This document shows positions 7,176 to 60,505 of a stretch of 64,000 bases of DNA, piece by piece. This DNA is from a virus, in IMG/VR virus record IMGVR_UViG_3300046472_000374. The stretch is one strand, 5' to 3'. Under the pieces are notes generated by a model. The model saw nothing but the letters and a program-made list of their open reading frames with translations, did not search any database and was not told the origin of the DNA. Position numbers and translations under genes: made by a program. Positions within the stretch are counted from its first letter, which is position 1, and every line of letters begins with the position of its first letter.

Positions 7176-7187
7176 TGGGTCTTCTCC

Positions 7188-42413: not shown

Positions 42414-42424
42414 ATTATATCACA
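42414..42424 (-). promoter_or_regulatory. Sigma70-type extended -10 promoter TGTGATATAAT
   Basis: Perfect TGn-TATAAT 20 nt before ATG 42393, overlapping the upstream TGA stop. Confidence 0.65.
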
Positions 42425-43346
42425 GGTAGGCGACAGATGTACCAAACTTTTGGACCACCTGCGCTGCTGCCGAGTTCGCAAACTTCACTGCCGATCGGAC
42501 GTCCCGAGTCTTCAGCGCACAGAAGGCCATGGCGGCCGTGTGGGTGTCCCCACAGCCGGTCACATCCTTGACCATCGCTTGAATCACTGGGAACTCCTCG
42601 GAGTGATTCACGTAGGAATCCCCGATGATCCTACCAGGGGCCAGGTCCGCCTTCACCGTCTTGGCGTGGTCACACATGATGAGGGTCGCACCCTCACTAC
42701 CGCGGGTGACCACCACGTACTGGAAGAACTCGGTGAAGTTGGTGTAGAGCTTGCTGGAGACCTGGGAGGAGTACTCCTTCTCGTTCACCTTCAGGATGTT
42801 GATCCCGTCGAAGATCCGGAGGTCCTCTCGCTTGGAGTCCACGATCGTCATGGGCGCCAGCTTCCTGAAAACCTCCATGACCTTCGGGGTGATGGTCCCC
42901 TTGTCGTAGTCGGAGAAGATGACGCAGTCGAAGCTCTGCTCCCAGTAGTCCATCATCATCTCGAAGAACTCTACCTCGGGCTGGTCGAACTTCCTGAAGT
43001 TGTCGAGACGCATGACGAAGTTGTTGTTCTCGTCCACGAACCGACGCTTGACCATCGTCTCATGCCCAAGCATCCGGTCGTGCTTGATCCCAAGCTCGCG
43101 CAGACGATGGATGACCACCAACGATCCGCAGATGCCGGCGAGGTGCACTTCCACTTCCGCTCCTCCGAGCGCCTTCAGGTTGTGAGCCACGTTGGCCGCC
43201 CCACCGAGACGGTACTCCTGGCGCAGCTCATCCCAGACGGGGATCTTGGCCTCCTCGGCCTGTCGCACCGTCTTGACGTACGTGTACTGGTCGAGCATGA
43301 TGTCCCCGACCACGAGAACCTTGTAGACCTTGTCAGGAGATTCCAC
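42420..43346 (-). CDS. PfkB sugar kinase, HldE/RfaE domain I-like (kinase 1)
   Basis: VLVVGDIMLD, RLGGAANVAHNL, SDYDKG, VTRGSEG, DVTGCGDT. Confidence 0.9.
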   Translation of the reverse strand: MESPDKVYKVLVVGDIMLDQYTYVKTVRQAEEAKIPVWDELRQEYRLGGAANVAHNLKALGGAEVEVHLAGICGSLVVIHRLRELGIKHDRMLGHETMVKRRFVDENNNFVMRLDNFRKFDQPEVEFFEMMMDYWEQSFDCVIFSDYDKGTITPKVMEVFRKLAPMTIVDSKREDLRIFDGINILKVNEKEYSSQVSSKLYTNFTEFFQYVVVTRGSEGATLIMCDHAKTVKADLAPGRIIGDSYVNHSEEFPVIQAMVKDVTGCGDTHTAAMAFCALKTRDVRSAVKFANSAAAQVVQKFGTSVAYL

Positions 43347-43824
43347 GGATCTTCTCCACGATGTTGGAGGTCGAGTTGCCGTCCAGGAACGGACAGGTCA
43401 CGACCAGGGCGAGATCAGAGCCTACCACCGTCTTGGGATCATAGTCTCCACCCTTGACGATCACATGCGGCTGCAGCGCTCTGATGAGCTCGTAGGGTGT
43501 GTCTTCCTCGAACGTAATGACGTGGTCGACCATCCTGAGATGGATGAGCAGGAGGGCGCGGGTGTGCTCATCCTGGATCGGGCGGTCCTGTCCCTTCAGG
43601 CGCTTGATCCCCTCGTCGGAGTTCAGACCTACCACCACGGTTCCCCGGGCTCCCGCCACGCTCCTGGCGTAGTTCAGGACGTCGAGGTGCCCACGGTGGA
43701 GGAGGTCGAAGCAGCCGTTGGTGAAGACGATTCGATCGTACCCCGTCTCGGGAAACAGGTACAGCCCGGCCTCCCTGATGGACCGGGCGAACCGTTCGTA
43801 TGTCTCAGACGCCTGCGAATTCAT
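43333..43824 (-). CDS. Heptose-1-phosphate nucleotidyltransferase, HldE/RfaE domain II-like
   Basis: VFTNGCFDLLHRGH, VVGLNSDE.IKRLKG..RPI, KGGDY, FLDGNSTS. Confidence 0.92.
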   Translation of the reverse strand: MNSQASETYERFARSIREAGLYLFPETGYDRIVFTNGCFDLLHRGHLDVLNYARSVAGARGTVVVGLNSDEGIKRLKGQDRPIQDEHTRALLLIHLRMVDHVITFEEDTPYELIRALQPHVIVKGGDYDPKTVVGSDLALVVTCPFLDGNSTSNIVEKIRGIS

Positions 43825-44152
43825 CCGGCCTCAGACTCCTGTCGTCGACGTACCTGTCACCCGGGGGCTTCCCGAAGATCAGCTCGTGGAACCACACTCC
43901 GTTGTCGATCAGCCAGTCCCGAGTCTTTTCTTCGTAGAGCTCGATGATCTTCTTCACGTCACCGTTGTGGGTTCGCATTCCACGAGCCGTGTGAATGGTG
44001 ACGTGCCACCCCTCGTCATAGCAGCGGTTGACCCGGGCGATGACGTCCTTCTTCGGCTGGGCGGTCCAATAGGCGTCACCCCCTGCGGTCTGTTCGCAGA
44101 GGGTGCCGTCGAGGTCCATCACCAGACGTCGGTCGTGAAAGGGATCATTCAT
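43805..44152 (-). CDS. Small HAD phosphatase (capsule-biosynthesis phosphatase type)
   Basis: MDLDGT, HTARG, FGKP...YVDD. Confidence 0.85.
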   Translation of the reverse strand: MNDPFHDRRLVMDLDGTLCEQTAGGDAYWTAQPKKDVIARVNRCYDEGWHVTIHTARGMRTHNGDVKKIIELYEEKTRDWLIDNGVWFHELIFGKPPGDRYVDDRSLRPDEFAGV

Positions 44153-45092
44153 CGATGACCGCACGATCCTTCATCTTCTCCCAGTCGTGGTCCTCCCGGA
44201 TCTCGTTGTTCCGGTCGATCACGGCGGTGAAGAGCTTCTCGGGAACGCCCTGCTGACGGCAGACGTTCCGGAGGTTGTTGATGTCCTTCGGGAAGCAGTG
44301 GCCTCCCGCGCCCAGAGAACCGTCGTGACCGGGGACGTAGGTGTGACTCACCCCGATCCGGAAGTCCAGCGTCGCCAGGGTGCGGACCTCCTCGTAGTCG
44401 ATGCCCATCTTCTGGCAGAGCTGGTACATCTCGTTGCAGAAGAGGACCTTCGTCATCAGGATGCCGTTGGTGAAGAGCTTCGCCATCTCGGCTTCCTTCG
44501 ACTCGCAGCCGACGATGACGACCTGGTTCATGAGGATCTTCTCGTAGAGCCGAGCCTCGAAGAACTTGAAGGCGACGCGCCCGTCCTCCGTGTCACCACC
44601 CAGGAGGACGCGGTTCGTGTTCTCGAAGTCGGCCACCGAGTTCTTCTCCGTGAGGAACTCGGGAGAGAAGAGCAGCCTGATCGGCATCTTCTTCCGCATC
44701 TCGTCGGTGAAGCCCGGATAGACCGTGCTCTTGACGACGACGACGAATGAGCTCGGGCTTCTTCCCTGACGCTCTGCCTCGTTCAAGATGTCCTTGAGCA
44801 CCGACTCCACGATGCCCGTGTGGCAGGAGCCGTCCTTGCGCATCGGGGTGGGCACGCAGACGAAGATGATCTCCGCCTTCCCGACCACGTCGGCCAGGGT
44901 GTCCATCTCGGGCTTGGCCTTGTCGAAGACCTTGACGTCGAAGAGCTGCGCGGGGTTCCCCTTCTCGTCCGTCTTCCAGCGGAAGAACTGCTCGACGGCG
45001 CGCCCGACGTACCCATAGCCAACCACTCCGACCGTTCCCTTGGTGGAATCGAACTTGGCTACGAAATCGGTAGCGTTGATGTCAATGCTCAT
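44145..45092 (-). CDS. UDP-glucose/GDP-mannose 6-dehydrogenase family, lacking C-terminal domain
   Basis: GVVGYGYVG, FVCVPTP, KSTVYPG, SPEFL, GGHCFPKD; ends ~30 aa after the catalytic Cys. Confidence 0.85.
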   Translation of the reverse strand: MSIDINATDFVAKFDSTKGTVGVVGYGYVGRAVEQFFRWKTDEKGNPAQLFDVKVFDKAKPEMDTLADVVGKAEIIFVCVPTPMRKDGSCHTGIVESVLKDILNEAERQGRSPSSFVVVVKSTVYPGFTDEMRKKMPIRLLFSPEFLTEKNSVADFENTNRVLLGGDTEDGRVAFKFFEARLYEKILMNQVVIVGCESKEAEMAKLFTNGILMTKVLFCNEMYQLCQKMGIDYEEVRTLATLDFRIGVSHTYVPGHDGSLGAGGHCFPKDINNLRNVCRQQGVPEKLFTAVIDRNNEIREDHDWEKMKDRAVIDE

Positions 45093-47609: not shown

Positions 47610-47813
47610 CTACTCGTCCTGGGTGCTCACGTAGCCGAGGACCTTGAGGACGCGCTGGCTAAGCTTCTTGAACTGCTCATCGATCAGCGCGTCTTCCTTC
47701 TCGGTCCGACCCTCGTCACCCTCGACGGAGCCGATGTTGAGGACAGCGTCGACCAGGACTTCCTTCGCCAGATCCTTGGGAGAGCACTTCTCGCCCTTCT
47801 TGTTCTTGATCAT
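47610..47813 (-). CDS. Small hypothetical protein
   Basis: MIKNKKGEK... 67 aa with GGGGGA SD, fills the gap exactly. Confidence 0.5.
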   Translation of the reverse strand: MIKNKKGEKCSPKDLAKEVLVDAVLNIGSVEGDEGRTEKEDALIDEQFKKLSQRVLKVLGYVSTQDE

Positions 47814-47814
47814 T

Positions 47815-48186
47815 TCAGTTCCCCTTTTCGACTCGGTATGAGTCGGATTCTTCGTGCATGGTGCTGAACTCGAACAGGTCCGACTCCTCGATGGCGCCGA
47901 TCTGGTGGACCAGACCACGGTCGATGAGGATGGACTCACCCGGCAGGAGGTCGACGTAGTACGGCGCCCCCTTCTCCGGGTCAATCAGTTTCAGACGGAC
48001 GTGTCCCTTCTGCAAGTACATCGTCTCCATCTTGTTCATGTGGAAGTGCAGGCTGCAGCACTTGTCCTTGTAGATGTGGAGGAGCTTGCCACAGTACTCC
48101 GGCTCGTTCTCGATCCAGAGCTCGTAGCCCCACCCGCGCTCGACGCGCTTGATGTCGGACGCGGTCCTCTTCTTTACTTCAGCCAT
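47815..48186 (-). CDS. Cupin, sugar-phosphate isomerase/epimerase-like
   Basis: RGWGYELWI...CCSLHFH..KMET.Y...HQIGA...EFST cupin metal motifs; start MAEVKK at 48186. Confidence 0.8.
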   Translation of the reverse strand: MAEVKKRTASDIKRVERGWGYELWIENEPEYCGKLLHIYKDKCCSLHFHMNKMETMYLQKGHVRLKLIDPEKGAPYYVDLLPGESILIDRGLVHQIGAIEESDLFEFSTMHEESDSYRVEKGN

Positions 48187-48887
48187 GAGTCGATGTCCTC
48201 CTGGAATTGCTTGACCGCCTTGTCCGTCTGGGGATGGGCGATCACCTGCTTGATGATCGACAGGGAAGCCGTCACGATGTCCGCCCCGTTCAGCCAGCAG
48301 TCCTGCAGGTCTTCCGGCTTCCGGATGCTGCCACAGATGATACGGCAGTTTCGGTTCAGATCGTTGGCGAACAGGCTCAGCTCCATGTCGGCGTCCAGAT
48401 CCCCGTCCTTCATCCGATTGTAGAAGAACGAGACGATGGGAGCGCCGGCATCGTGGGCCAGCTTCGCCTGAAGGGCTGTCATGGCCGCGGTGGCGTTCAC
48501 CTTGACCCCGTCGTCGCCAAGTCTCGAGATCACCTCGAGTGACTCGAAGAGGATCGGGATCTTGACGTGCAGCTGCACCTTGTCGTACTTCCCGAGGGCG
48601 TCCCGAAGACGGTGCGCCTGATCGTACATCTCCTGGGGATCGAGGGTGATGACCTCGACCGAGAGGTGCTTCCTGGCCCGCGCACGAGTCTGGAAGACCT
48701 GGCAGACGTCGTCCAGTCGCTTGACGTAGTGGTCCCACTTCTCCTTCGAGAAGCGAGGTTCCAGCGAGACGACCTTGGTCTCCTTGGCCATGAGTGACGG
48801 GTTGGTCGTCACACCGGCCACGGCGTCCGTCCGGACCGCGAGGGAGATGTCGTCCAGGTTCGCGCTGTCGAGGAAGAGCTCTTTCAT
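48174..48887 (-). CDS. tal: Transaldolase (small TalC/FSA subfamily)
   Basis: LFLDSAN, GVTTNPSL, SVEV, VKIP (Schiff-base Lys), VNAT, VSFFYNR, GSIR. Confidence 0.9.
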   Translation of the reverse strand: MKELFLDSANLDDISLAVRTDAVAGVTTNPSLMAKETKVVSLEPRFSKEKWDHYVKRLDDVCQVFQTRARARKHLSVEVITLDPQEMYDQAHRLRDALGKYDKVQLHVKIPILFESLEVISRLGDDGVKVNATAAMTALQAKLAHDAGAPIVSFFYNRMKDGDLDADMELSLFANDLNRNCRIICGSIRKPEDLQDCWLNGADIVTASLSIIKQVIAHPQTDKAVKQFQEDIDSWLK

Positions 48888-49804
48888 GGGCGCTCCTTGG
48901 GAACGATCGTCCCCTTATAAGTAGTGCTCAGGCCGGCCCACCTGTTGGCGAAGTCGAGGTCTTCCGACACGGCGTAGGCGGCCAGGAAAGCGTCCCCGGC
49001 CCCGCAGGTGTCCACGGCCCGGACATCGTATGCTTCCGACTCGTGGTACTCGTCCGAGTCCTTGAACATGGTGGCCGAACCGTGGTGTCCCAGCTTCAGG
49101 GTGATCCCAGAGTGGAGGCGTTCCTTGGCCCGTTGGACACGGTCCACGATGCAGTCCACCTCACGGGGACGACCGACCACGGCCTCCAGCTCCTTGAGGT
49201 TCAGGAACATCATGTCGGCGCCGGCGTAGTTGCTGTGGTTGCTTTCCTTCTGGGAGACCTGGCTGTCCACGAAGAGCTTCCCGCCGTAGCGTTCCTTCTT
49301 CTGCCGGATGAGGTCCATCAGGCTGTAGTCCATCGTCCCGTGGCGGTTGTCGCAGACCACCACGGCGTCAGCCACGTTGCGGGCCTGGACATAGGCGTCG
49401 GCCATGATCTGCTTCAGGTCCTGGGAGTAGTACGCCTCGTTCCGAACGTCGTACTGCACCATCTTGTAGTCGTCGACGTAGAACCGACGCTTCTCCGTCC
49501 ACTTCCATCCCTTGCCCACGATCGGGCTGTAGTCGAGCCGGTTGAGCTCGTCCTGGGTGGGGGCGTCAGTGGACTCCACCAGCCGGGTCCAGAGGCTCTC
49601 GTCGCCGCCGACAGTCAGGAGCCGGACGTTGGCACCCAACCTGAGGAGATGTCTGACGACGAGGGCCGCACCTCCGATGAAGCGTTCCGTTCGCTCGTAG
49701 TCGGCCACGATGGTCGGAGTCTCAGCGGAGACACCGAGCTTCTTTCCGTGGGTGTACTCGTCGAGGATCACGTCCCCGACCACCAGGATGTTCTTATTCG
49801 TCAC
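48884..49804 (-). CDS. PfkB sugar kinase, HldE/RfaE domain I-like (kinase 2)
   Basis: ILVVGDVILDEY...VSAETP, GGAALV, TEKRRF, KLGHHG, DTCGAGDAF; GTG start at 49804. Confidence 0.85.
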   Translation of the reverse strand: MTNKNILVVGDVILDEYTHGKKLGVSAETPTIVADYERTERFIGGAALVVRHLLRLGANVRLLTVGGDESLWTRLVESTDAPTQDELNRLDYSPIVGKGWKWTEKRRFYVDDYKMVQYDVRNEAYYSQDLKQIMADAYVQARNVADAVVVCDNRHGTMDYSLMDLIRQKKERYGGKLFVDSQVSQKESNHSNYAGADMMFLNLKELEAVVGRPREVDCIVDRVQRAKERLHSGITLKLGHHGSATMFKDSDEYHESEAYDVRAVDTCGAGDAFLAAYAVSEDLDFANRWAGLSTTYKGTIVPKERP

Positions 49805-50243
49805 CGAGGTACCCCAGCTTCTCCACCCTGGCGATGTGACGGCCTTCCTCGAAGGCGGTCTCCAGGAAGGTGTGGATGAGCTCGTCCATGGAACCCAGGG
49901 GAGTGCGCCACTGGCCGAGGACGAGGACATTGCAGTCGTTGTGCTGGCGCATGAGCTCGGCCGTGGCGCGATCCGTCGCCAGGCCGGCGCGGATGGAACG
50001 GAACCGGTTGGCGGCGATCAGCATGCCCGTCCCCGTACCGCAGATCAGGATTCCGGTGGCGTCGTCCTTCATGACGCCCTTGCACAGCTTCTCGGCGATG
50101 TCCGTGTAGTCGACCTTGTGCTCGTAGTCGTCCCCGTTGACGTCGCACACGCAGTAGCCAGCGGCCAGCAGGAGCTTCATGATGTAGCCCCGGGCCGCGT
50201 TCCCGTTGTGGTCTGAACCGAGGTAGATGGTGTTACTGTCCAT
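49794..50243 (-). CDS. rpiB: Ribose-5-phosphate isomerase B
   Basis: GSDHNG, VDY, GILICGTGTGM.IAANR, HNDCNVLVLG, GRH..RV. Confidence 0.92.
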   Translation of the reverse strand: MDSNTIYLGSDHNGNAARGYIMKLLLAAGYCVCDVNGDDYEHKVDYTDIAEKLCKGVMKDDATGILICGTGTGMLIAANRFRSIRAGLATDRATAELMRQHNDCNVLVLGQWRTPLGSMDELIHTFLETAFEEGRHIARVEKLGYLGDE

Positions 50244-50877
50244 AGGTCGTGTTGTACCTTTTGTGCCAGGCCTTGACATCTTCGCCGTGCATCAGGCGAC
50301 AGTTGCCACCGTTGAGGGTGTGGGCGATGTAGTTCTTCTGAGCGATGTTCTCCAAGGCGGCCGCCAGCTCCACAGCCTTGTTTGGAGTGTCGCCGAAGGT
50401 CAGGACACCGTGCTGGTAGAGCAGCACCGCCTTCTCATCCGGATCCAAGAGCAGCTCGTCTCCCCACCGGTCGATGTCCGGCCTTCCGGTCGTCCGGATG
50501 TCGTGACCGAAGTAGTCGGCATGCTCCGTGCACCTGACCTCGAGGTCCCTACCCGAGATGGCGTAGCCGACGGCGTAGGGCGAGTGGGTGTGGCAGATGG
50601 AGTGGACGTGAGGATATTTCCGATAAATCGCCAGGTGATGGGGAAGGTCCACGGAGGGCTTCCGCTTGCCCATCAGGATCTCGCCGTCTGAGATCGCCAC
50701 GCAGACGACGTCTTCGACCTGGATCTGCTCGTACGGCATGCCGCTCGGCTTGATGCAGACGACTCCACCGGGAGCCAGCACGGAGAGGTTCCCGTGGGTG
50801 TCCCGGATCACGTCATTCATCTTGGCCATCCTGCGCAGCCCGCTGACGAGGGCCGCTACGAACACAGAGGTAGTCAC
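50233..50877 (-). CDS. Class II aldolase / L-ribulose-5-phosphate 4-epimerase (AraD/FucA family)
   Basis: GNLS, IKPSG, KPS.D..HH..IY, ICHTHSPYA, HG..TFG; GTGA-coupled start at 50877. Confidence 0.88.
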   Translation of the reverse strand: MTTSVFVAALVSGLRRMAKMNDVIRDTHGNLSVLAPGGVVCIKPSGMPYEQIQVEDVVCVAISDGEILMGKRKPSVDLPHHLAIYRKYPHVHSICHTHSPYAVGYAISGRDLEVRCTEHADYFGHDIRTTGRPDIDRWGDELLLDPDEKAVLLYQHGVLTFGDTPNKAVELAAALENIAQKNYIAHTLNGGNCRLMHGEDVKAWHKRYNTTYGQ

Positions 50878-51779
50878 AGCAGCTCCTTGATCTTGGTAAA
50901 TACTTCCTCCACCGTGATGGGGGTATCTATGCCCTCTACGACCCGATACTCCTGACACCAGGGATGTGCCTTGACGGAGGAGTTCCACATCTTGAAGATC
51001 CCCACGACCTTCTTGTCTTGGGCTGCCGCCACGTGCATCATGCCGGTGTCATTCCCGACGTACATGTGACAGGAGTTCACGACCTCTAGAGAATGGATCA
51101 GGTTCGTCGGGATGAGCTGGAGACGGAGGTCGTCCACCATCTTCATGATCGGCATGATGGAAAGCTGGATGTCGGCCATGTCACCCGTGGTCACGATCTC
51201 GCAGTCTGGAATCTCCGCCAGGATCCGCTTGCAGAGCTCAGCGTAGTTCTCATTCCCCCAGTGCTTCACCTTCCAGAATCCGGCGGCGTCCTTCTTGTAC
51301 CCGACCCCGAGGTAGATCCTGAACTTGGCGTTCGGGGGAGGGAGCCACTTCGGCATGAACGAGCAGTCCGGGGTCACGTGGTTGTAGCCCATGACCCGGG
51401 CGTTCTCCATCTGGTACTCGACCTCGTGCTTCTTCCAGGAAACAAGACCAGTGGTGGAGGGATCTGGTCTGGTCCTGCCGTCCATCATCTGGAAGGCGTG
51501 ATAGTGGGTCCCGTTGTGCCAGCGGCCGTCGAAGGGGATCGACATGATCGCCATCTTGTACATCGGGTCTTCCACGGGTTGCGCCCGATCCACCCAGATG
51601 TTTTTGATGCAGCGGTAATGGGTCTTCAAGGACCGCAGCACTTCCAGGGCGCCGACGTCATCCCGTGTGCTGCCGACCAGGACGTCGAGCTCACAGCCGA
51701 TGTGGTGGAGCGCCTTGATGGCCGGGACCGCCATGACGGCGTTTCCGAGCCCAAAGACCTTCCCGAAGAGGGTCCTCAC
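50874..51779 (-). CDS. GT9 (heptosyltransferase-family) glycosyltransferase
   Basis: GLGNAVMAVPAIKAL, KHW....Y.EL, YVGNDTGMMHVAAA; GTGA-coupled start at 51779. Confidence 0.85.
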   Translation of the reverse strand: MRTLFGKVFGLGNAVMAVPAIKALHHIGCELDVLVGSTRDDVGALEVLRSLKTHYRCIKNIWVDRAQPVEDPMYKMAIMSIPFDGRWHNGTHYHAFQMMDGRTRPDPSTTGLVSWKKHEVEYQMENARVMGYNHVTPDCSFMPKWLPPPNAKFRIYLGVGYKKDAAGFWKVKHWGNENYAELCKRILAEIPDCEIVTTGDMADIQLSIMPIMKMVDDLRLQLIPTNLIHSLEVVNSCHMYVGNDTGMMHVAAAQDKKVVGIFKMWNSSVKAHPWCQEYRVVEGIDTPITVEEVFTKIKELL

Positions 51780-52819
51780 TTGAGCACCGCGTACATCTGG
51801 AGCATGCGAGCCCGAAGGGTGTGATGAGCCATGGCGTGAGAGTGTCCCTGCCAGGCGATCCACTGGGCCCGCTTCTCCGACTCCAGGGCGAACTCGATCT
51901 GCTCGTCCAGCCGCTTCAGGTCCTTGAAGTAGAGACAGTGTCTCCGGTCGAGGAACGGTTCGATCTGGACGGCGCCGGAGTCCTGGGTCAGCATCAGGCT
52001 GCCGACGTAGGGGATCTCGTAGAACCGCAGGGTCTTCCCGTTCTCGGCCGCTCCCCTGAGGTTGAGGCAGATCCGGGACTGGGCCATCACGTCGAAGTAC
52101 ACGTTCTTGCGGACGTAGGCCCGCATCGTGTTCGGCTCACGTTCCAGATCGATCTTCAGCCGGAGGTGTCCCCACTTCGAGAGGACGTGATCGATGATCC
52201 TGGCCCGATCGGGATGGCTGTTGTAGCCCTGAAAGGAGATGTCGTACTTCTTCTCCTGGGTCCGGTGCGGCGTCCAGTACTGGTCGAAATTGATGCACCA
52301 GTTGTAGACATGGGCCTTGGGGATGCTGTCGTACTCCGGACGCCAGTTGTCGAGGAACATGGCCTCGAGCCTGGTGCCGTAGCGGGCGGCCACGAACTCG
52401 GGGCTCCTGTTCCAGAACCTGTCGTGACCGGCCACCACGACCACGGGGACATCGTAGAAGTTCGCCCGAAGCTTCATGTAGAGGGCGTAGGTCTCGTCCC
52501 GTTCGTCCAGGAAGATCCGCTTGATGTTCCCCCGGCTCAGCTCGTCTCGGAGCTCTTCTTCAGAGTACATCGAGACCCGCTTGTTCTCGGGGGTGAACCC
52601 GAGCATCCCGCGCTCCCGTCCCCAGTCCTTCTCCGGATCTCCCGTGAAGGTGAGGTCCCACCGGTGCTTCCAGTGGTATGGGTGGTCGATGACCTTGGCC
52701 GGACCGAGCAGCTGCACATGTCCGGCGAACAACAGGTCCTGTCCCCAGTCGCTGCCCTCCCGGGCGTCGATGAGCAGGGTCTTCCGTTCGTTCTCGGGTA
52801 GCGGCAGCTTGGGGATCAT
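51776..52819 (-). CDS. Glycosyltransferase, CgeB/Glyco_trans_1_2-like
   Basis: KYDISFQG, YFDVMAQSRICLN, RFYEIPYVGSLMLT, IAWQGH. Confidence 0.75.
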   Translation of the reverse strand: MIPKLPLPENERKTLLIDAREGSDWGQDLLFAGHVQLLGPAKVIDHPYHWKHRWDLTFTGDPEKDWGRERGMLGFTPENKRVSMYSEEELRDELSRGNIKRIFLDERDETYALYMKLRANFYDVPVVVVAGHDRFWNRSPEFVAARYGTRLEAMFLDNWRPEYDSIPKAHVYNWCINFDQYWTPHRTQEKKYDISFQGYNSHPDRARIIDHVLSKWGHLRLKIDLEREPNTMRAYVRKNVYFDVMAQSRICLNLRGAAENGKTLRFYEIPYVGSLMLTQDSGAVQIEPFLDRRHCLYFKDLKRLDEQIEFALESEKRAQWIAWQGHSHAMAHHTLRARMLQMYAVLK

Positions 52820-56424: not shown

Positions 56425-56435
56425 ATTATATCACA
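56425..56435 (-). promoter_or_regulatory. Sigma70-type extended -10 promoter TGTGATATAAT
   Basis: Identical 11-mer to 42414-42424; 9 nt before ATG 56415. Confidence 0.6.
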
Positions 56436-59400
56436 CTTCCATCCTGGCGATCCACTCTTTCATCACGGCAGGATTTGAACGCTTCAGCTCGAAGACCGGC
56501 GCCTTCTGGTGCTCTCCGCCCTGGGCCTTCATCTCGGCCGCCTTCTTCAGGACGTCTTCCTCGGTCTTCACCTCGGGAAAGCGGGGCTGCGGCGCCGGAT
56601 CGTTGTAGAGGTTGCTCCAGCACTTGTCCCAGAAGTCCCGGAAGTTCCGGATCTTGCGGGGGATGTCCGCCCACGAGTAGTGGTAGACTGACGGGAGCTC
56701 TCCATAGATCTGGTTCATCTTCTCGCCAAAGGCCTCCGGGTTGGAACGACGGAGCATCTCCATACCCTTGTCGTAGAAGCCGATGTGCGGGACGAAGTCG
56801 TAGTTCATCATGTCGATGTACTCGCAACCGTCCGACATGCCCTTCCGGGCGAAGGTCTTGCCGGTCTTCTCGTCCACCACCCGAGCGTCCTTGAAGATGC
56901 CGTGGGTGATGTTGAAGACGTTCCGGCTGAGGCGCCACTTCCAGGTGTGACGGTCCGTGCGACAGTGCTTGCTGTCGCCCCAGAGCTCCACCACCGGAAG
57001 GTGGACCAGGCTGACTTCCTTCGGGAAGCGCTTGACGAGCGCCCTGACCTTGTCGTAGTCTTCCTCGTGGACGACCTCGTCGCAGTCCTGCTGCCAGAGG
57101 AAGTCCCCGGTGCAGAGGGCCCGACCGAACGCCTTCTGCTGTCCGTCCATTCCCGGCTCTTCCCAGTCCCACGGGCGGACCGAGACCTCGAGCCGCGGCT
57201 CTTCCTTCGCCCAGGCCTGGAGCTTCTCCAGGGTCTCGTCCTGGGATCCACCGTCCACCACGACCACCTGGTCGCAGAAGCCGAGCATGGACTGGATGGA
57301 CTCCTTCCACGGGTACCCCTGCTTGCTGGGGTTCAGGATGTGGGTGTAGCCGCTGATGGTCGGGCGGTACTCCTTGTAGTCCGTCATCTTCTCCATGATG
57401 ACCGAGGAGTTGGAGTGCATCGCGATGACGCGAAGAGTCTCCTCCACGACCTTCTTCGGAGAGATCTCGTTGACGCAGGGATGGTCCTTGTCCACCGAGC
57501 AGGTGTACTTGTAGCAGGCCCGGTCGCAGGAATAGCGGTCCGGCGTGTCCAGCAGGACGGCCAGCTTCTTCTTGTTGACCGGACCCGTGGACGTGGCGTA
57601 GGAGCTCCCGTAGAGGGAGACCTGTGGAACGTCCAGACCGTCCGCCAGGTGGGACGTGACCGAGTCGATGCTGAGGAGGAGCTTGGCGCCCTTGACCACG
57701 GAGGCCAGCTGGTTGTAGCTGGTCTTGCCACGGAAGTCGACGACGTCCTTGTACTCCGGATCGTCCGGCATTCCGACCTGGACGACCGGAAGTCCCGTCA
57801 TGGCCCGCAGGTTGCTGATGACCTCCTGCCAGTGCAGGTAGTTCCGTGCCTCCCACTGTCCCTTACCCGATCCGGGGTTGAGGACGATGTACTCCTCGGG
57901 GAGCCCGTCGACCTTGTCCAGGGCGATCCGGTACTCTCCGAACTCCACGTCGCAGAGGTGCGCCATCTCGTTTCCGAGGAGGCGTCCCTTGCCACGCTTG
58001 ACCCAGTTGGCCGCCGTGGTCTGGATGGCCAGGTTGGGTGTGAAGACGTCGTCGAAGACCTGCTCGCAGAGCGGGACGTTCTGCATCCAGCCCTCGAACT
58101 GGACGCCCTGGTCGATGTCCGGGTTGTCCCGGATGATCGAGGCGTACTGCTCGTTCGTGGCGAAGAAGATCTTGTGTTCCGGGAACTTCTTCCGGAGGGA
58201 GTTCACGACCGCCGTGGAGATGTAGACGTCCCCGGCCGACATGGGCATCGTGTAGAGGAGGGTCTTCTTCCCGTCCCCCGAGAAGCGCTTCTTGAGGAGA
58301 GCGACCGCCTCCGCCTCCGAGCGGGGGTTCTGGGCGGTGTGGAGCTTCAGGAACTCCCCGATGGACTGGTAGAGCGTGTAGCCGGTCTTCTGCTCGGAGA
58401 AGTTCTCGGCCACGTGCTTGGCCAGTTCGGCCGCCCACTCCTTCGGCTTCTCGTAGCTGAGGGTCAGCTTCTTCAGCTTCAGCTTTACGTCGTCTTCCTT
58501 GGGGTTGGCCCACTGGCTCCCCTTCTCCATGACGCCGTTCCAGATGCAGGACTCGGGGATCTCCTTGAGCTCGTACTCCAGGGGAACGAACTTCTTCCGT
58601 CCGTCGATCTGGAGGAAGTCCAGGTGACCCGACCAGGCGGTGGCCACGACCGGCAGGCCGCAGGCGGCGGCCTCCAGGAGCGGCAATCCGAAGCCCTCTC
58701 CGTGGGTCAGGGACACCAGCGCCTTGACCTGGGGATGCTTATACAGGCCCGCCATCTCGGCATCACTCAGACGTCCGTGGATGAGCTGGATGCGGGGGAA
58801 CTTCTCGCATCCGACCAGCTTCTTGATCTCCTTGAGCCGGTGGACCATCGTGTCGTAGTCCATGAGGGACCCGTTGACGATGCCCGCCTTCAGGACCAGA
58901 CCCACATTCGGGTCATCCTTGAAGCGCTCGCAGAACCACTTGACGAGGTTGCCGAGGTTCTTCCGGTCCTCGCCCAGCGGCTTGTCCAGCCCCAGCCCCA
59001 CGAAGAGGTAGTTGAAGGGTGCGTCGAGCTCGAACTTCCGGACGTCCTCGGGGACGGGATCCGTGTTGTAGTACCGGACGTCCACGCCCTCGTGGCAGAC
59101 CGCCAGGGGCTTGGTGACCCTGAGCTGTCCTTCGGGGGTGTTGTACCCCACGTTGAGCATGGTGTTCTTGGAATGCTCCGAGGGGACGACGATGAGGTCG
59201 ATCTTCTCGTTGATCTTCTTGATCCACTCCGGGGAGACGCGGTCGACCTCGATGCCGGCCGTGATGCCGATGTTCACCCGGGCCATCTTCTCGAACTCGT
59301 TCGGGATGGTGACCTGGACGGACACGTCGTACTGCGTGTTCCCCTGGGCCTTCTCCATCTCGTACTTGACGATGAGGTCCTTGATCTTGGCGAAGAACGG

Positions 59401-59556
59401 GGTCTGGTCGAGGATATACGAGGTATTGCCCCAGTTGCAGGCCATCACACTGACGTCGTACTCCCCGCAGGCCAGGAGGGCCTTGAGTACCTGTCGGGAG
59501 TGGACACCGTAGCCCGAGGCCGTGAGGACCGGGGCGCGGAGGAGGAGCTTGAGCAT
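56431..59556 (-). CDS. Three-domain glycosyltransferase fusion GT4-GT9-GT2
   Basis: GT4: SGYG, GEGFGLPLLEAAACGLPVV. GT9: AGDVYISTAVVNSLRKKFP, SIDSVTSHLA..LDVPQVSLYG. GT2: DQVVVVDGGSQDET, WQQDCDE. Confidence 0.88.
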   Translation of the reverse strand: MLKLLLRAPVLTASGYGVHSRQVLKALLACGEYDVSVMACNWGNTSYILDQTPFFAKIKDLIVKYEMEKAQGNTQYDVSVQVTIPNEFEKMARVNIGITAGIEVDRVSPEWIKKINEKIDLIVVPSEHSKNTMLNVGYNTPEGQLRVTKPLAVCHEGVDVRYYNTDPVPEDVRKFELDAPFNYLFVGLGLDKPLGEDRKNLGNLVKWFCERFKDDPNVGLVLKAGIVNGSLMDYDTMVHRLKEIKKLVGCEKFPRIQLIHGRLSDAEMAGLYKHPQVKALVSLTHGEGFGLPLLEAAACGLPVVATAWSGHLDFLQIDGRKKFVPLEYELKEIPESCIWNGVMEKGSQWANPKEDDVKLKLKKLTLSYEKPKEWAAELAKHVAENFSEQKTGYTLYQSIGEFLKLHTAQNPRSEAEAVALLKKRFSGDGKKTLLYTMPMSAGDVYISTAVVNSLRKKFPEHKIFFATNEQYASIIRDNPDIDQGVQFEGWMQNVPLCEQVFDDVFTPNLAIQTTAANWVKRGKGRLLGNEMAHLCDVEFGEYRIALDKVDGLPEEYIVLNPGSGKGQWEARNYLHWQEVISNLRAMTGLPVVQVGMPDDPEYKDVVDFRGKTSYNQLASVVKGAKLLLSIDSVTSHLADGLDVPQVSLYGSSYATSTGPVNKKKLAVLLDTPDRYSCDRACYKYTCSVDKDHPCVNEISPKKVVEETLRVIAMHSNSSVIMEKMTDYKEYRPTISGYTHILNPSKQGYPWKESIQSMLGFCDQVVVVDGGSQDETLEKLQAWAKEEPRLEVSVRPWDWEEPGMDGQQKAFGRALCTGDFLWQQDCDEVVHEEDYDKVRALVKRFPKEVSLVHLPVVELWGDSKHCRTDRHTWKWRLSRNVFNITHGIFKDARVVDEKTGKTFARKGMSDGCEYIDMMNYDFVPHIGFYDKGMEMLRRSNPEAFGEKMNQIYGELPSVYHYSWADIPRKIRNFRDFWDKCWSNLYNDPAPQPRFPEVKTEEDVLKKAAEMKAQGGEHQKAPVFELKRSNPAVMKEWIARMEV

Positions 59557-59566
59557 CGGATGCCTT

Positions 59567-60505
59567 TCAGCGAGCCAGGATGATGCTGGGTTGGTTTCGC
59601 TTCTCGTAGAGGTCCAGGACCTCCAGACCCTGCTTCAGACTGAGCTGGGGATTCCACCCCAGGACGTCCCGGGCCTTGCTGTTGTCGGCCAGGGTGACCA
59701 TCGCCTCGGCCGGACGGTCGGGGATGTAGGTCTTCTCGCCGCCGACCATGTCGGCTACCTGGTTGATCGAGTAGTTCACGCCGGTCCCGATGTTGAACAC
59801 ACCGGTCGCGTTGCGGTTCATGGCTGCCAGCATGTTGGCCCGGACCACGTCGCCGACGAAGGTGAAGTCCCGGCGCTTCTCGCCGGTCCCCACGACCGTC
59901 AGCGGCAGGCCTTCCCGCAGCTGCTTCCTGAAGATGGCGATGACGGTGGCGTACGAGCCCTCTTCCTGGTGGCGGGGGCCGTAGACGTTGAAGTAGCGGA
60001 GGGCCACAGTGGAGAGCCCGTAGAGTTTGGTGTAGACCTCACAAACGTCCTCACCGAACTTCTTCCCCAGGGCGTAGGGGTTGAGGCAGTCGGAAGGCAT
60101 CGTCTCCTTGAGGGGAGGCTTGTTCTTCAGACCGTAGCAGCTGGAGCTGGCCGAGTAGACGACCCGCTTGACCCCGCCCTGACGGCAGGCCTCGAGGACG
60201 TTGGCCGACCCCATGCAGTTCTGGCTGAACGCCAGAAGGGGGTCGGTGATGCTCGGCTGGATCCGGCTCATGGCCGCCAGGTGGAACACCCAGTCCTTGT
60301 GGTCCACCACCCGCCGAACCATGTCGAAGTCCCGGATGTCTCCCCGGACGACCTCGAGTCTGGGCTCGTCTTTCCAACGGTAGAGGTTCTCGATCTTCCC
60401 TTCCGAGAAGTTGTCGAGGACCATGACCTCGTGTCCCTGCACCAGGAGCTCGTCGACCAGGTGCGACCCGATGAAACCCGCTCCTCCGAGAACTGCAACC
60501 GGCAT
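59567..60505 (-). CDS. NAD-dependent NDP-sugar epimerase/dehydratase (extended SDR)
   Basis: GGAGFIGSH, HLAA, SSSCYG, YALGK (YxxxK), LRYFNVYGP, RDFTFV; start MPVAV at 60505 with AGGAGA SD. Confidence 0.92.
   Translation of the reverse strand: MPVAVLGGAGFIGSHLVDELLVQGHEVMVLDNFSEGKIENLYRWKDEPRLEVVRGDIRDFDMVRRVVDHKDWVFHLAAMSRIQPSITDPLLAFSQNCMGSANVLEACRQGGVKRVVYSASSSCYGLKNKPPLKETMPSDCLNPYALGKKFGEDVCEVYTKLYGLSTVALRYFNVYGPRHQEEGSYATVIAIFRKQLREGLPLTVVGTGEKRRDFTFVGDVVRANMLAAMNRNATGVFNIGTGVNYSINQVADMVGGEKTYIPDRPAEAMVTLADNSKARDVLGWNPQLSLKQGLEVLDLYEKRNQPSIILAR

What the first reader, a model, noticed from the sequence alone, without database searches (positions are those of the whole stretch)
47815..51779. 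GmhA-less higher-carbon sugar module: transaldolase + RpiB + class II epimerase + cupin + kinase next to a GT9
Seen: a contiguous coupled run GT9 - AraD/FucA-like - RpiB - HldE-like kinase - transaldolase - cupin, with no SIS-domain GmhA anywhere in the cluster. The transaldolase has Glu in SVEV and Phe in VSFFYNR, the transaldolase-type rather than FSA-type (Gln/Tyr) residues by eye alignment. Established: ADP-heptose synthesis uses GmhA-HldE-GmhB-HldD; lincosamide octose synthesis starts with a transaldolase (LmbR) joining a C3 unit to ribose-5-P, then isomerase, kinase, phosphatase and nucleotidyltransferase. Inference: RpiB/AraD-like enzymes supply a pentose-5-P acceptor, transaldolase builds a heptulose-7-P or octulose-8-P, and the cupin replaces GmhA as ketose-aldose isomerase. 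The product could be an unusual-stereochemistry NDP-heptose or NDP-octose, not central-carbon auxiliary metabolism.
Basis: partly seen in the sequence, partly recalled or inferred. Interest (0 to 1): 0.8.

Follow-up and report, generated by a model that had tools for sequence, protein, structure and literature searches.

The report
GmhA-less phage higher-sugar pathway
A soil phage carries a tightly packed gene set, shared with marine cyanophages, other phages and soil bacteria, that most likely builds an activated seven- or eight-carbon sugar using a mannose-phosphate-isomerase-like cupin in place of the usual first enzyme GmhA; no paper I could find describes this route.

Summary
At 47815-51779 (minus strand) lie GT9, an AraD-like epimerase, RpiB, an HldE-type kinase, a short transaldolase and a 123-aa cupin. 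All junctions overlap by 4-13 nt. No SIS/GmhA gene occurs in the 64-kb window.

The run is not central-carbon auxiliary metabolism. It combines two conserved modules.

- **Cupin cassette:** cupin, kinase 2, small HAD and HldC-like nucleotidyltransferase (42420-44164), plus an SDR. The same set occurs in cyanophages P-SSM2 and S-SM2 and in at least 585 IMG/VR contigs. Cupin and GmhA never co-occurred in 168 viral loci. The cupin's best structural matches are type II phosphomannose-isomerase domains.
- **Transaldolase branch:** Tal, kinase 1, RpiB and AraD. It is orthologous to a compact cassette, RpiB::NT-kinase-(AraD)-cupin-Tal-HAD next to GT9. That cassette occurs in other phages and in Acidobacteriota, Verrucomicrobiota and others, whose genomes keep housekeeping Tal, usually a second RpiB and a GmhA-like gene elsewhere.

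The product (an unusual heptose or an octose) remains unproven.

Earlier follow-ups of this scan reached similar readings of the same cassette on other DNA (CPR bacteria, DPANN archaea, Acidobacteria, marine viruses). Those are unchecked AI notes.

The parts
51776..52819 (-). GT1_2-type glycosyltransferase-like gene. Its stop overlaps the GT9 start by 4 nt.
   Evidence: PF13524, 54 bits; junction -4 nt
50874..51779 (-). Stand-alone GT9 (heptosyltransferase-family) glycosyltransferase, the presumed user of the activated sugar.
   Evidence: PF01075, 51.5 bits. Syntenic GT9 genes occur in L003, L004, L007, L011 and L018.
50233..50877 (-). AraD-like class II aldolase-fold 4-epimerase, 214 aa from the GTG at 50877.
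   Evidence: PF00596, 127.5 bits. Best solved relative is E. coli L-ribulose-5-P 4-epimerase 1jdi, E=3.9e-22. AraD positions N28, K42, S44, G45, S74, D76, H95, H97, D120 and H171 are invariant.
49794..50243 (-). RpiB-type sugar-phosphate isomerase, 149 aa. It is unfused here but fused to an HldC-like NT domain in relatives.
   Evidence: PRK05571, 139.4 bits against a cut-off of 135. E. coli RpiB positions D9, H10, C66, T68, H99, N100, R133, H134 and R137 are invariant. Fusions are seen in L004, L099, L102 and L221.
48884..49804 (-). Kinase 1: a PfkB/HldE-domain-I-like anomeric sugar-phosphate kinase of the transaldolase-module clade.
   Evidence: TIGR02198, 126.6 bits, below its cut-off. It groups with the kinases of the bacterial Tal module at 90/92 support.
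48174..48887 (-). Short (TalC-type) transaldolase with a modified substrate motif, VSFFYNR.
   Evidence: PF00923, 118.9 bits. 3r8r E=2e-25 versus FSA 1e-15. Module Tals share VS[FILV]F[YHFM][NCG]R where cyanophage TalC has VSPFVGR.
47815..48186 (-). 123-aa metal-site cupin resembling type II PMI domains; the proposed ketose-P to aldose-P isomerase that stands in for GmhA.
   Evidence: AF2 model pLDDT 93. The top 17 Swiss-Prot structural matches are the C-terminal PMI domain of ManC/XanB/AlgA, rmsd 1.4-2.1 A. H47, H49, E54, H94, K34, K52 and R118 are invariant.
47610..47813 (-). 67-aa ORF of unknown function directly after the cupin.
   Evidence: No Pfam hit. A 64-aa ORF occupies the same position in L007.
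43805..44152 (-). Small HAD-IIIA phosphatase with a DLDGT motif; the presumed sugar-bisphosphate phosphatase (GmhB role).
   Evidence: TIGR01689, E=1.6e-18. It is 38-39% identical to the cyanophage proteins annotated as 'phosphoheptose isomerase'.
43333..43824 (-). HldC/HldE-domain-II-like nucleotidyltransferase.
   Evidence: TIGR02199, 154.6 bits against a cut-off of 181.5. The C-terminal FLDGNSTS resembles the heptose-NT hallmark (F/L)xxGRSTT (PMC11573728).
42420..43346 (-). Kinase 2: an HldE-domain-I-like kinase of the cupin-cassette clade shared with cyanophages.
   Evidence: TIGR02198, 167.7 bits, below its cut-off. The clade with cyanophage kinases has 96/99 support.
44145..45092 (-). 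Short NDP-sugar dehydrogenase-like gene (315 aa). It keeps its place next to the HAD in related phages.
   Evidence: TIGR03026, 171 bits against a cut-off of 189.8. Synteny in L003, L004, L007, L009, L010, L011 and L018.
59567..60505 (-). SDR-type NDP-sugar epimerase/dehydratase-like enzyme (312 aa).
   Evidence: PF01370, 196 bits; GalE 168 bits; heptose_epim 134.5 bits against a cut-off of 274.6. Start codon.
56431..59556 (-). 1041-aa fusion of GT4, GT9 and GT2 domains; a second GT9 domain in the island.
   Evidence: PF00534, PF01075 and PF00535 hits. The same fusion occurs in L003 and in the 202,787-bp ENA contig that carries P0103.

Best explanation
The six genes are the core of a phage-encoded pathway that makes a nucleotide-activated higher-carbon sugar (C7 or C8) and passes it to GT9 transferases of a 19-kb glycan island. 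The pathway uses no SIS-fold GmhA. It has two parts.

(a) Cupin cassette: the cupin (47815-48186), kinase 2, a small HAD and an HldC-like NT (42420-44164), plus an SDR. Proposed steps: the PMI-like metal cupin isomerises a ketose phosphate (by analogy sedoheptulose-7-P) to the aldose phosphate. The PfkB kinase then phosphorylates C1, the HAD removes the distal phosphate, the NT makes the NDP-sugar and the SDR epimerises it.

(b) Transaldolase branch: Tal, kinase 1, RpiB and the AraD-like epimerase. Proposed steps: AraD-like 4-epimerisation and RpiB isomerisation of a pentulose-5-P give an aldopentose-5-P acceptor. Tal adds a C3 unit from F6P or S7P to give an octulose-8-P, or a heptulose-7-P if the acceptor is erythrose-4-P. 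The cupin isomerises that product, kinase 1 phosphorylates it, and the shared HAD and NT finish the pathway.

What is shown here: gene content, translational coupling, conserved catalytic residues, orthology, synteny, co-occurrence, and the mutual exclusion of cupin and GmhA. What is inferred: every enzymatic activity, the order of steps and the identity of the product.

My rough split for the product of the Tal branch: octose 0.35, non-manno heptose 0.30, ordinary D-glycero-D-manno-heptose 0.20, other 0.15.
For: Coupling and families.

Cupin as isomerase:
- The confident model is structurally closest to type II PMI domains.
- Profile matches include D-lyxose isomerase (1e-6) and archaeal cupin PMIs (8e-5).
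- Orthologues reach the PF01050 gathering score: L221 25.7 and L099 24.0 against 23.6.
- In 88 cupin-centred loci, kinase occurs in 70, NT in 69, HAD in 67, SDR in 65 and GmhA in 0.
- In 80 GmhA-centred viral loci, kinase occurs in 77 and the cupin in 0.
- Caulobacter phage Cr30 has SDR-GT-kinase-GmhA and no cupin in its whole genome.
- The complete genomes of P-SSM2 and S-SM2 have the cassette and no SIS domain.
- Cyanobacterial LPS lacks heptose (PMC4390846).

Dedicated Tal branch:
- The compact cassette RpiB::NT-kinase-(AraD)-cupin-Tal-HAD lies next to GT9 in about 20 viral contigs, for example L221, and in 27 bacterial loci.
- Five of those bacterial genomes also have a housekeeping long Tal. 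Four of the five have a second RpiB, and all have a GmhA-like gene.
- Kinase 1 groups with the bacterial module kinases and kinase 2 with the cyanophage kinases.
- Module Tals share a changed substrate motif.
- The fused NT is 45-57% identical to HldE NT domains.
- The AraD and RpiB active sites are intact.
Against: - No activity has been measured for any member of either module.
- The window cupin itself stays below every Pfam cut-off.
- The cupin fold is generic. The best VIA-align match is the CapF cupin domain (Z 16.6), which is an NDP-sugar epimerase.
- Cupin-linked and GmhA-linked kinases form two deep lineages. The 168 loci are therefore not independent events, and the mutual exclusion could partly reflect ancestry.
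- Compact cassettes contain both RpiB and a cupin, so which of the two is the ketose-aldose isomerase of the Tal product is open. The RpiB::NT fusion resembles the known GmhA-kinase-NT tridomain enzymes (PMC11573728).
- A dedicated RpiB that only makes ribose-5-P would be redundant in bacteria that already have one.
- The whole genome of this phage was not available, so a GmhA gene outside the window cannot be excluded.
- The host is unknown and may supply GmhA.
Confidence: 0.6

Rival explanations
1. Precursor-boosting reading. Tal, RpiB and the AraD-like enzyme act as pentose-phosphate auxiliary genes. They only raise the supply of sedoheptulose-7-P or ribose-5-P during infection for an ordinary D-glycero-D-manno-heptose pathway (cupin, kinase, HAD, NT). 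Kinase 1 would be a redundant paralogue and no unusual sugar would be made.
For: RpiB, AraD and Tal keep canonical catalytic residues. RpiB passes the RpiB subfamily cut-off. Cyanophages carry talC as a stand-alone auxiliary gene. The NT domains are close to HldE NT domains.
Against: - The same gene set is conserved in bacteria that keep a housekeeping long Tal and usually a second RpiB.
- RpiB is repeatedly fused to the NT.
- Tal sits inside the coupled operon and has a changed substrate motif. It is only about 32% identical to cyanophage TalC.
- An L-ribulose-5-P 4-epimerase has no place in S7P supply.
- Related phages replace the four genes with an SDR without losing the rest of the island.
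Confidence: 0.15
2. The cupin is not the isomerase. It would be a CapF/RmlC-like epimerase acting on an NDP-keto-sugar together with the SDR. The ketose-aldose step would be done by RpiB in this phage, or by the host's GmhA.
For: The best VIA-align match is the CapF cupin domain (Z 16.6, rmsd 2.7 A, 121 residues aligned). The cupin lies next to an SDR in cyanophages and in L007. The RpiB::NT fusion parallels the known isomerase-kinase-NT fusions (PMC11573728).
Against: - Identity to CapF is only 13%, against 16-25% identity and rmsd 1.4-2.1 A for the PMI domains.
- Orthologues pass the PF01050 cut-off.
- Most cupin cassettes have no RpiB.
- P-SSM2 and S-SM2 have no SIS domain, and cyanobacterial LPS lacks heptose (PMC4390846).
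- An epimerase should sometimes accompany GmhA, but cupin and GmhA never co-occur in 168 loci.
- The SDR is equally common beside GmhA cassettes (45 of 80).
Confidence: 0.13
3. The pathway makes an activated hexose. The cupin would be a true phosphomannose isomerase (F6P to M6P), and the kinase, HAD and NT would produce NDP-mannose without a phosphomannomutase.
For: The cupin's nearest structural relatives are PMI domains of GDP-mannose enzymes. PF01050 hits occur in orthologues.
Against: Both kinases and the NT are of the HldE type. The transferases next to the module are GT9. Other phages have GmhA in the equivalent cassette. A dedicated Tal is not needed to obtain F6P.
Confidence: 0.05

Closest known systems
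ADP-L-glycero-beta-D-manno-heptose pathway (GmhA, HldE or HldA+HldC, GmhB, HldD) with GT9 heptosyltransferases
   Same: The logic is the same: ketose-P isomerase, anomeric PfkB kinase, HAD phosphatase, cytidylyltransferase-fold NT, SDR epimerase and GT9 transferase. The kinases and NT are recognisably of the HldE type.
   Different: There is no SIS-fold GmhA; a PMI-like cupin takes its place. The phosphatase is a small TIGR01689-type HAD rather than GmhB. There are two paralogous kinases. A dedicated Tal, RpiB and AraD-like epimerase are built in. Every NCBIfam equivalog score for the pathway enzymes is below its cut-off.
Lincosamide GDP-octose pathway LmbR/LmbN/LmbP/LmbK/LmbO (from my own knowledge: Sasaki et al. 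2012, Lin et al. 2014)
   Same: A pathway-dedicated short transaldolase starts a chain of isomerase, kinase, phosphatase and NT that yields an NDP-higher sugar. An Lmb-like set (Tal, SIS, HAD, NTP_transferase, GHMP kinase) exists in the Lacunisphaera genome, which also carries the present module.
   Different: The isomerase here is a cupin (plus RpiB), not SIS. The kinase is PfkB, not GHMP, which by analogy with HldE versus HddA probably gives the beta rather than the alpha anomer. The NT has the HldC fold, not the NTP_transferase fold. The setting is a surface or virion glycan with GT9, not an antibiotic.
Cyanomyophage 'LPS/heptose' gene set T4-GC 304-308 (P-SSM2, S-SM2, S-CAM1/3, P-TIM68)
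   Same: The NT, kinase, small HAD, cupin and SDR are orthologous; the cupin is 45-53% identical. Kinase 2 falls in the same clade.
   Different: The cyanophage set is known only from annotation. Its HAD is annotated as 'phosphoheptose isomerase' and its cupin as 'cysteine dioxygenase'. The cassette has no Tal, RpiB, AraD or kinase 1, and talC lies elsewhere in those genomes.
Type II phosphomannose isomerase domain (C-terminal cupin of ManC/AlgA/XanB; PF01050) and archaeal single-domain cupin PMIs (7zvy, 7zvm)
   Same: The cupin has the same fold and a metal site of the H/Q-x-H...E...H type. These domains are its best structural matches and also appear as profile matches. The F6P to M6P reaction has the same stereochemistry as S7P to D-glycero-D-manno-heptose-7-P.
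   Different: The phage cupin is a stand-alone 123-aa protein. It is genomically tied to HldE-type enzymes, not to GDP-mannose genes. Its substrate has not been tested.
Fused NDP-heptose biosynthetic enzymes: kinase-NT and GmhA-kinase-NT (Tang et al. 2024, as summarised in PMC11573728)
   Same: An isomerase-type domain is fused to a heptose-type NT in relatives of this module (RpiB::NT). The NT carries a related C-terminal motif.
   Different: The fused isomerase domain is RpiB, not SIS. No kinase is part of the fusion. In this window RpiB is unfused.

Membership tests
Canonical ADP-heptose pathway | SIS-fold sedoheptulose-7-P isomerase GmhA | tested here: not met
   No SIS match in the window or in 7 syntenic loci at E<=10, with positive controls found. 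No PF13580 or PF01380 match in the P-SSM2 or S-SM2 genomes.
Canonical ADP-heptose pathway | HldE domain I / HldA heptose-7-P kinase (TIGR02198, cut-off 345 bits) | tested here: inconclusive
   Kinase 1 scores 126.6 bits and kinase 2 scores 167.7 bits. TIGR02198 is the best family for both, but both are below its cut-off. Both lie in a clade separate from the GmhA-linked viral kinases.
Canonical ADP-heptose pathway | HldE domain II / HldC nucleotidyltransferase (TIGR02199, cut-off 181.5 bits) | tested here: inconclusive
   154.6 bits. The motif is FLDGNSTS, against the hallmark (F/L)xxGRSTT (PMC11573728).
Canonical ADP-heptose pathway | GmhB-type HAD phosphatase | tested here: inconclusive
   The 115-aa HAD matches TIGR01689 (EcbF/BcbF) at 66.9 bits, below the 162-bit cut-off. 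No GmhB model matched.
Canonical ADP-heptose pathway | HldD ADP-heptose 6-epimerase (TIGR02197, cut-off 274.6 bits) | tested here: not met
   134.5 bits. The GalE model scores higher at 168 bits.
Canonical ADP-heptose pathway | GT9 transferase | tested here: met
   PF01075 scores 51.5 bits for the stand-alone gene and 49.4 bits in the 1041-aa fusion.
LmbR/N/P/K/O-type NDP-octose pathway | Pathway-dedicated short transaldolase | tested here: met
   PF00923, 118.9 bits, inside the coupled operon. Bacterial genomes with the module keep a separate long housekeeping Tal.
LmbR/N/P/K/O-type NDP-octose pathway | Ribose-5-P as the Tal acceptor, giving octulose-8-P | not testable with these tools
   Only indirect evidence: RpiB and AraD are co-encoded, and the Tal motif is changed.
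LmbR/N/P/K/O-type NDP-octose pathway | SIS isomerase, GHMP kinase and NTP_transferase-fold NT | tested here: not met
   The window has a cupin and RpiB, PfkB kinases and a CTP_transf_like NT instead. A true Lmb-like set is seen in L120 for comparison.
Type II phosphomannose isomerase cupin (PF01050) | Pfam gathering score of 23.6 bits | tested here: inconclusive
   The window cupin has no PF01050 hit. Orthologues score 25.7 bits (L221) and 24.0 bits (L099). Several homologues carry precomputed PF01050 hits.
Type II phosphomannose isomerase cupin (PF01050) | Cupin barrel with a His/Gln-x-His, Glu, His metal site | tested here: met
   Model pLDDT is 93. H47, H49, E54 and H94 are invariant in 30 sequences. 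The top 17 Swiss-Prot structural matches are PMI domains.
Cyanophage TalC auxiliary metabolic gene | Stand-alone short Tal with the canonical VSPFVGR motif | tested here: not met
   The window Tal is embedded in a glycan operon, has the motif VSFFYNR and is 31-33% identical to TalC.
RpiB (ribose-5-P / allose-6-P isomerase B) | Family score and the catalytic Cys66/Thr68/His99 set | tested here: met
   PRK05571 scores 139.4 against a cut-off of 135. The TIGR01120 equivalog scores 117.8, below 138.65. The catalytic and phosphate-binding residues are invariant. The substrate is untested.
AraD (L-ribulose-5-P 4-epimerase) | Zn ligands His95/His97/His171, Asp76 and the acid/base Asp120 | tested here: met
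   All are conserved in alignment A3. The best solved relative is 1jdi. NCBIfam scores are below cut-off (148.6 against 251), so it is not an equivalog. The substrate is untested.

The most novel reading that the evidence does not exclude
The transaldolase branch would make a nucleotide-activated octose. An aldopentose-5-P shaped by AraD and RpiB would be extended by Tal to an octulose-8-P, isomerised by the cupin and activated by HldE-type enzymes. GT9 enzymes would then install it in a phage-directed or bacterial surface glycan. That would be the first eight-carbon aldose pathway outside antibiotic biosynthesis, present in phages, Acidobacteriota and other phyla.
Probability: 0.3. Interest if true: 0.88.

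Novelty: new variant of a known kind. Interest (0 to 1): 0.72.

Why it matters
**A missing enzyme explained.** NDP-heptoses are core building blocks of bacterial envelopes and are innate-immune agonists. Their synthesis is taught as strictly dependent on GmhA. A cupin that replaces GmhA would be a clean case of non-orthologous enzyme displacement. It would explain how hundreds of phages, including the model cyanophages P-SSM2 and S-SM2, can encode a "heptose" pathway with no isomerase in hosts whose LPS lacks heptose. It would also correct widespread database names: "phosphoheptose isomerase" for a HAD phosphatase and "cysteine dioxygenase" for the cupin.

**A new sugar pathway.** The transaldolase/RpiB::NT branch points to an uncharacterised activated C7 or C8 sugar. 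It is used by GT9 enzymes in soil bacteria and in phages of very different lineages. This opens questions about phage-directed glycan synthesis on virions or on the host surface, and offers new enzymes for rare-sugar chemistry.

**Directly testable.** All of this can be checked with gmhA complementation and a small in-vitro reconstitution.

Tried and rejected
- **DNA similarity.** blastn of the module against cultured phages gave no match. An exact 40-mer from the cupin gene is absent from IMG/VR.
- **Whole-genome search.** No whole genome is held for the window. The long syntenic contigs L003, L004 and L007 are also not held. The refutation test "gmhA elsewhere in the genome" could therefore only be run on the window, on 7 syntenic 20-kb loci and on complete cyanophage genomes.
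- **Structural proteins.** PHROGs on the large structural proteins gave little beyond a baseplate wedge hit.
- **Cupin function from structure.** Foldseek and phmmer against the PDB returned mostly generic metal cupins such as oxalate decarboxylase and quercetinase. That could not assign a function. The Swiss-Prot AlphaFold library was more telling.
- **A GmhA candidate that was not one.** I first took the 119-aa ORF at 43805-44164 for a GmhA, because its cyanophage homologues are annotated "phosphoheptose isomerase". It is a HAD phosphatase.
- **Tal as an aldolase.** Tal being an FSA-type aldolase was rejected because it has Glu and Phe, not Gln and Tyr.
- **LmbR comparison.** LmbR itself could not be fetched. 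The Lmb-like Tal of L120 and L121 was used as a proxy instead. It also lacks the canonical Pro (VSVFAGR), which is only a weak hint.
- **Expression.** No RNA runs hold the stretch, so expression was not assessed and read laying was not used.
- **Literature.** Searches found no paper on a cupin-type heptose isomerase or on this cassette.

Full report
**Setting.** The window has about 60% GC and almost all genes lie on the minus strand. It belongs to a large myovirus. A baseplate wedge protein at 36259-38124 matches PHROG 219 and is 34-36% identical to those of Microcystis phage Mel-JY01 and Flavobacterium "immuto" phages. The same DNA is found in many soil and rhizosphere metagenomes, on contigs up to 167,879 bp. 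No whole genome is held. The finding lies inside a glycan island at about 42.4-61.8 kb that is rich in glycosyltransferases and methyltransferases.

**Observation.** On the minus strand the run reads as follows.

| Gene | Coordinates |
|---|---|
| GT1_2 | 51776-52819 |
| GT9 | 50874-51779 |
| AraD-like | 50233-50877 |
| RpiB | 49794-50243 |
| PfkB kinase 1 | 48884-49804 |
| Transaldolase | 48174-48887 |
| Cupin | 47815-48186 |

Successive genes overlap by 4, 4, 11, 11, 4 and 13 nt. Independent gene calls on other assemblies of the same phage give the same products of 214, 149, 306, 237 and 123 aa.

No GmhA is present. A profile of 83 GmhA-like sequences finds nothing at E<=10 in six frames of the window or of seven syntenic phage loci, while controls score 131-252 bits.

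The transaldolase is closer to true transaldolases (3r8r, 2e-25) than to FSA (1l6w, 1e-15). It keeps the Tal-type Glu (SVEV) and Phe (VSFFYNR), where E. coli FsaA has Gln and Tyr.

**The pathway extends beyond the stated coordinates.** tblastn with cyanophage proteins showed three more genes 4 kb downstream: a second HldE-domain-I-like kinase (42420-43346), an HldC-like nucleotidyltransferase (43333-43824) and a small protein (43805-44152). An SDR lies at 59567-60505. The cyanophage homologues of the small protein are annotated "phosphoheptose isomerase". It is in fact a HAD-IIIA phosphatase (TIGR01689, E=1.6e-18, DLDGT motif), and so are the cyanophage proteins.

**The cupin.** It has 45-53% identical homologues in cultured cyanomyophages (S-SM2, P-SSM2, P-SSM5, S-CAM1, S-CAM3, P-TIM68, Bellamy). 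There it sits within the conserved set NT (T4-GC 304), kinase (305), HAD (306), cupin (307) and SDR (308). The complete S-SM2 and P-SSM2 genomes contain no SIS domain. Cyanobacterial LPS is reported to lack heptose and Kdo (PMC4390846).

At least 585 IMG/VR stretches encode a relative of the cupin. Co-occurrence within 10 kb was as follows.

| Loci examined | Kinase | NT | Small HAD | SDR | GmhA | Cupin |
|---|---|---|---|---|---|---|
| 88 cupin-centred | 70 | 69 | 67 | 65 | 0 | 88 |
| 80 GmhA-centred viral (of 431 found) | 77 | 37 | 1 | 45 | 80 | 0 |

In the cupin-centred loci the typical order is NT-kinase-HAD-cupin. Caulobacter phage Cr30 is a cultured example of the GmhA type (SDR-GT-kinase-GmhA), and its genome has no cupin.

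The AlphaFold model is confident (pLDDT 93). Against Swiss-Prot models, the top 17 matches are all the C-terminal phosphomannose-isomerase cupin domain of ManC, XanB and AlgA (rmsd 1.4-2.1 A over 110-112 residues, 16-25% identity). Profile search of the PDB finds D-lyxose isomerase (1e-6, almost full length) and archaeal cupin PMIs (8e-5) among generic cupins. Orthologues reach the PF01050 gathering score.

H47, H49, E54 and H94 (metal site) and K34, K52 and R118 are invariant in 30 sequences. F6P to M6P has the same stereochemistry as S7P to D-glycero-D-manno-heptose-7-P (established chemistry). A PMI-like cupin is therefore a chemically natural substitute for GmhA.

The main caveats are three. 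VIA-align ranks the CapF epimerase cupin first (Z 16.6, 13% identity). The fold is generic. And cupin-linked and GmhA-linked kinases form two deep clades, so the exclusion pattern is not made of independent events.

**The transaldolase branch.** Only a subset of cupin loci carries Tal, kinase 1, RpiB and AraD: L003, L004, L011, L018 and the 202,787-bp ENA contig that carries P0103. Sister phages L007 to L010 have the same island, but with GT9-SDR-cupin instead. In L004, RpiB is fused to a cytidylyltransferase-like domain.

A scan of species genomes with a kinase-1 alignment found 27 bacterial loci. Most are Acidobacteriaceae. Others are Lacunisphaera, Armatimonadota, Proteobacteria and Longimicrobiales, plus one contig binned as Methanosarcinales. 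They carry RpiB::NT, optionally AraD, kinase, a (bi)cupin, a short Tal and a small HAD, often next to an HldC-like NT and a GT9.

Five of these genomes were searched whole. All have a long housekeeping transaldolase (about 250-320 bits). Four have a second stand-alone RpiB. All have a GmhA-like gene elsewhere, scoring 184-201 bits on TIGR00441 in three of them. The module enzymes are therefore dedicated paralogues working beside the standard routes.

A second IMG/VR scan found about 20 viral contigs with the compact cassette and no second kinase or NT. An example is L221, a 171-kb contig with 37% GC. Its operon reads GT4, a 289-aa ORF, RpiB::NT, PfkB, Aldolase_II, cupin (PF01050 25.7 bits), Tal, HAD and a GT1_2::GT9 fusion, with overlapping genes from RpiB::NT through HAD.

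A kinase tree gives three clades:
- GmhA-linked viral kinases (support 100/100).
- Kinase 1 together with the bacterial module kinases (90/92).
- Kinase 2 together with the cyanophage cassette kinases (96/99).

The RpiB::NT architecture is rare: about a dozen full-length clusters among 1.84 billion representatives. Its NT half is 45-57% identical to the NT domain of HldE-length proteins.

RpiB keeps D9, H10, C66, T68, H99, N100, R133, H134 and R137 of E. coli RpiB. The AraD-like protein keeps N28, K42, S44, G45, S74, D76, H95, H97, D120 and H171 of E. coli AraD, and its best solved relative is that epimerase. All module transaldolases have VS[FILV]F[YHFM][NCG]R where cyanophage TalC has VSPFVGR. 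The Tal of an Lmb-like cluster in the Lacunisphaera genome (Tal, HAD, SIS, NTP_transferase, then MBOAT, an unassigned ORF and a GHMP kinase) also lacks the Pro.

**Mechanism.** In the compact cassettes, one kinase, one HAD and one NT accompany Tal, RpiB, a cupin and often AraD. All of them therefore probably serve one linear pathway. The assignment that gives each enzyme its canonical chemistry is:

1. A pentulose-5-P is epimerised at C4 by AraD, where present.
2. RpiB isomerises it to an aldopentose-5-P.
3. Tal extends this by a C3 unit to an octulose-8-P.
4. The PMI-like cupin isomerises that to the aldose.
5. The PfkB kinase phosphorylates C1.
6. The HAD removes the distal phosphate.
7. The HldC-like NT activates the sugar.
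8. GT9 transfers it.

The alternative is a heptose route: E4P as acceptor, with AraD and RpiB acting on the heptulose to give a talo-, galacto- or other non-manno heptose. The alternative is favoured by the RpiB::NT fusion, by the closeness of the NT to HldE and by the GT9 context.

In this window the phage appears to run two branches. One is cupin to kinase 2, as in cyanophages. The other is Tal/RpiB/AraD to kinase 1. Both would share the cupin, the HAD and the NT, and feed two GT9 domains. All activities are inferred.

**Comparison and novelty.** The system works like the ADP-heptose pathway and like the lincosamide LmbRNPKO octose pathway. It fails membership of both on defining features: there is no SIS isomerase, and for Lmb there is also no GHMP kinase and no NTP_transferase-fold NT. 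Literature searches found no description of a cupin-type heptose isomerase or of this cassette. Cyanophage papers list the genes only by annotation (PMC7378029). The 2024 work on NDP-heptose enzymes across kingdoms assumes an isomerase step without naming a cupin (PMC11573728).

After my analysis, I found that earlier notes of this scan describe the same cassette in CPR bacteria, DPANN archaea, Acidobacteria and marine viruses, with similar readings. They are unchecked AI notes and were not used as evidence.
- The link to cultured cyanophages and their misannotations.
- The mutual-exclusion test of cupin versus GmhA.
- The two-kinase composite architecture, with its tree.
- The shared transaldolase motif.

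**Verdict.** The feature is real. It is a new variant of a known kind of pathway, with good comparative support for the cupin as a GmhA replacement. The product is unresolved.

Noticed in passing
L001:8688-9017 and 7047-7358 (S-SM2); L002:8688-9032 (P-SSM2); window 43805-44152: Cyanophage proteins annotated 'phosphoheptose isomerase' (T4-GC 306) are small HAD-IIIA phosphatases (TIGR01689), not SIS isomerases. The neighbouring cupin (T4-GC 307) is annotated 'cysteine dioxygenase' in RefSeq. Both names look wrong.
   Followed up: yes
L120:9004-15416 (Lacunisphaera genome G002, contig C29); a similar Tal-plus-SIS pair lies in L121 (G005, contig C20): This is a second, Lmb-like cluster in the same bacterial genome that carries the RpiB::NT module. 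It reads short Tal, HAD, SIS_2 isomerase, NTP_transferase, an unassigned ORF, MBOAT and GHMP kinase. It has the full enzyme logic of the lincosamide octose pathway in a non-antibiotic setting.
   Followed up: partly
window 44145-45092: This NDP-sugar dehydrogenase-like gene is only 315 aa. It matches positions 71-305 of the 413-position TIGR03026 model, so the last part of the model is not covered. It keeps its place next to HAD-NT-kinase 2 in all related GT9-type phages. Weak, unverified UGD-like tblastn hits (28-31% identity) lie about 3 kb from the module in 8 of the 27 bacterial loci. It might oxidise the higher sugar.
   Followed up: no
window 56431-59556: A 1041-aa single polypeptide carries GT4, GT9 and GT2 domains. 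The same fusion is conserved in L003 and in the 202,787-bp ENA contig that carries P0103.
   Followed up: partly
L099:10972-11805; L102:2925-3338 and 3357-4010: In bacteria the module's cupin is a bicupin of about 277 aa, or two adjacent cupin ORFs. The N-terminal barrel lacks the HxH...E metal motif. Only the C-terminal barrel resembles the phage cupin and passes PF01050.
   Followed up: partly
window 46117-46722: A methyltransferase carries a Cys-rich insert that gives a weak hit to the phage FDXHR zinc-binding domain (PF24071, 18 bits, below cut-off).
   Followed up: no
L007:7128-9417 and L008: Sister phages have an SDR between GT9 and the cupin, exactly where this phage has AraD-RpiB-kinase 1-Tal. 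This is a natural module swap that could be used to compare the glycans.
   Followed up: partly
L001:1-258 and 6376-7050 (S-SM2): The heptose-type cluster of S-SM2 also holds a protein with a transketolase central region and a class II aldolase-family protein, as annotated. This hints at another precursor-shaping variant.
   Followed up: no
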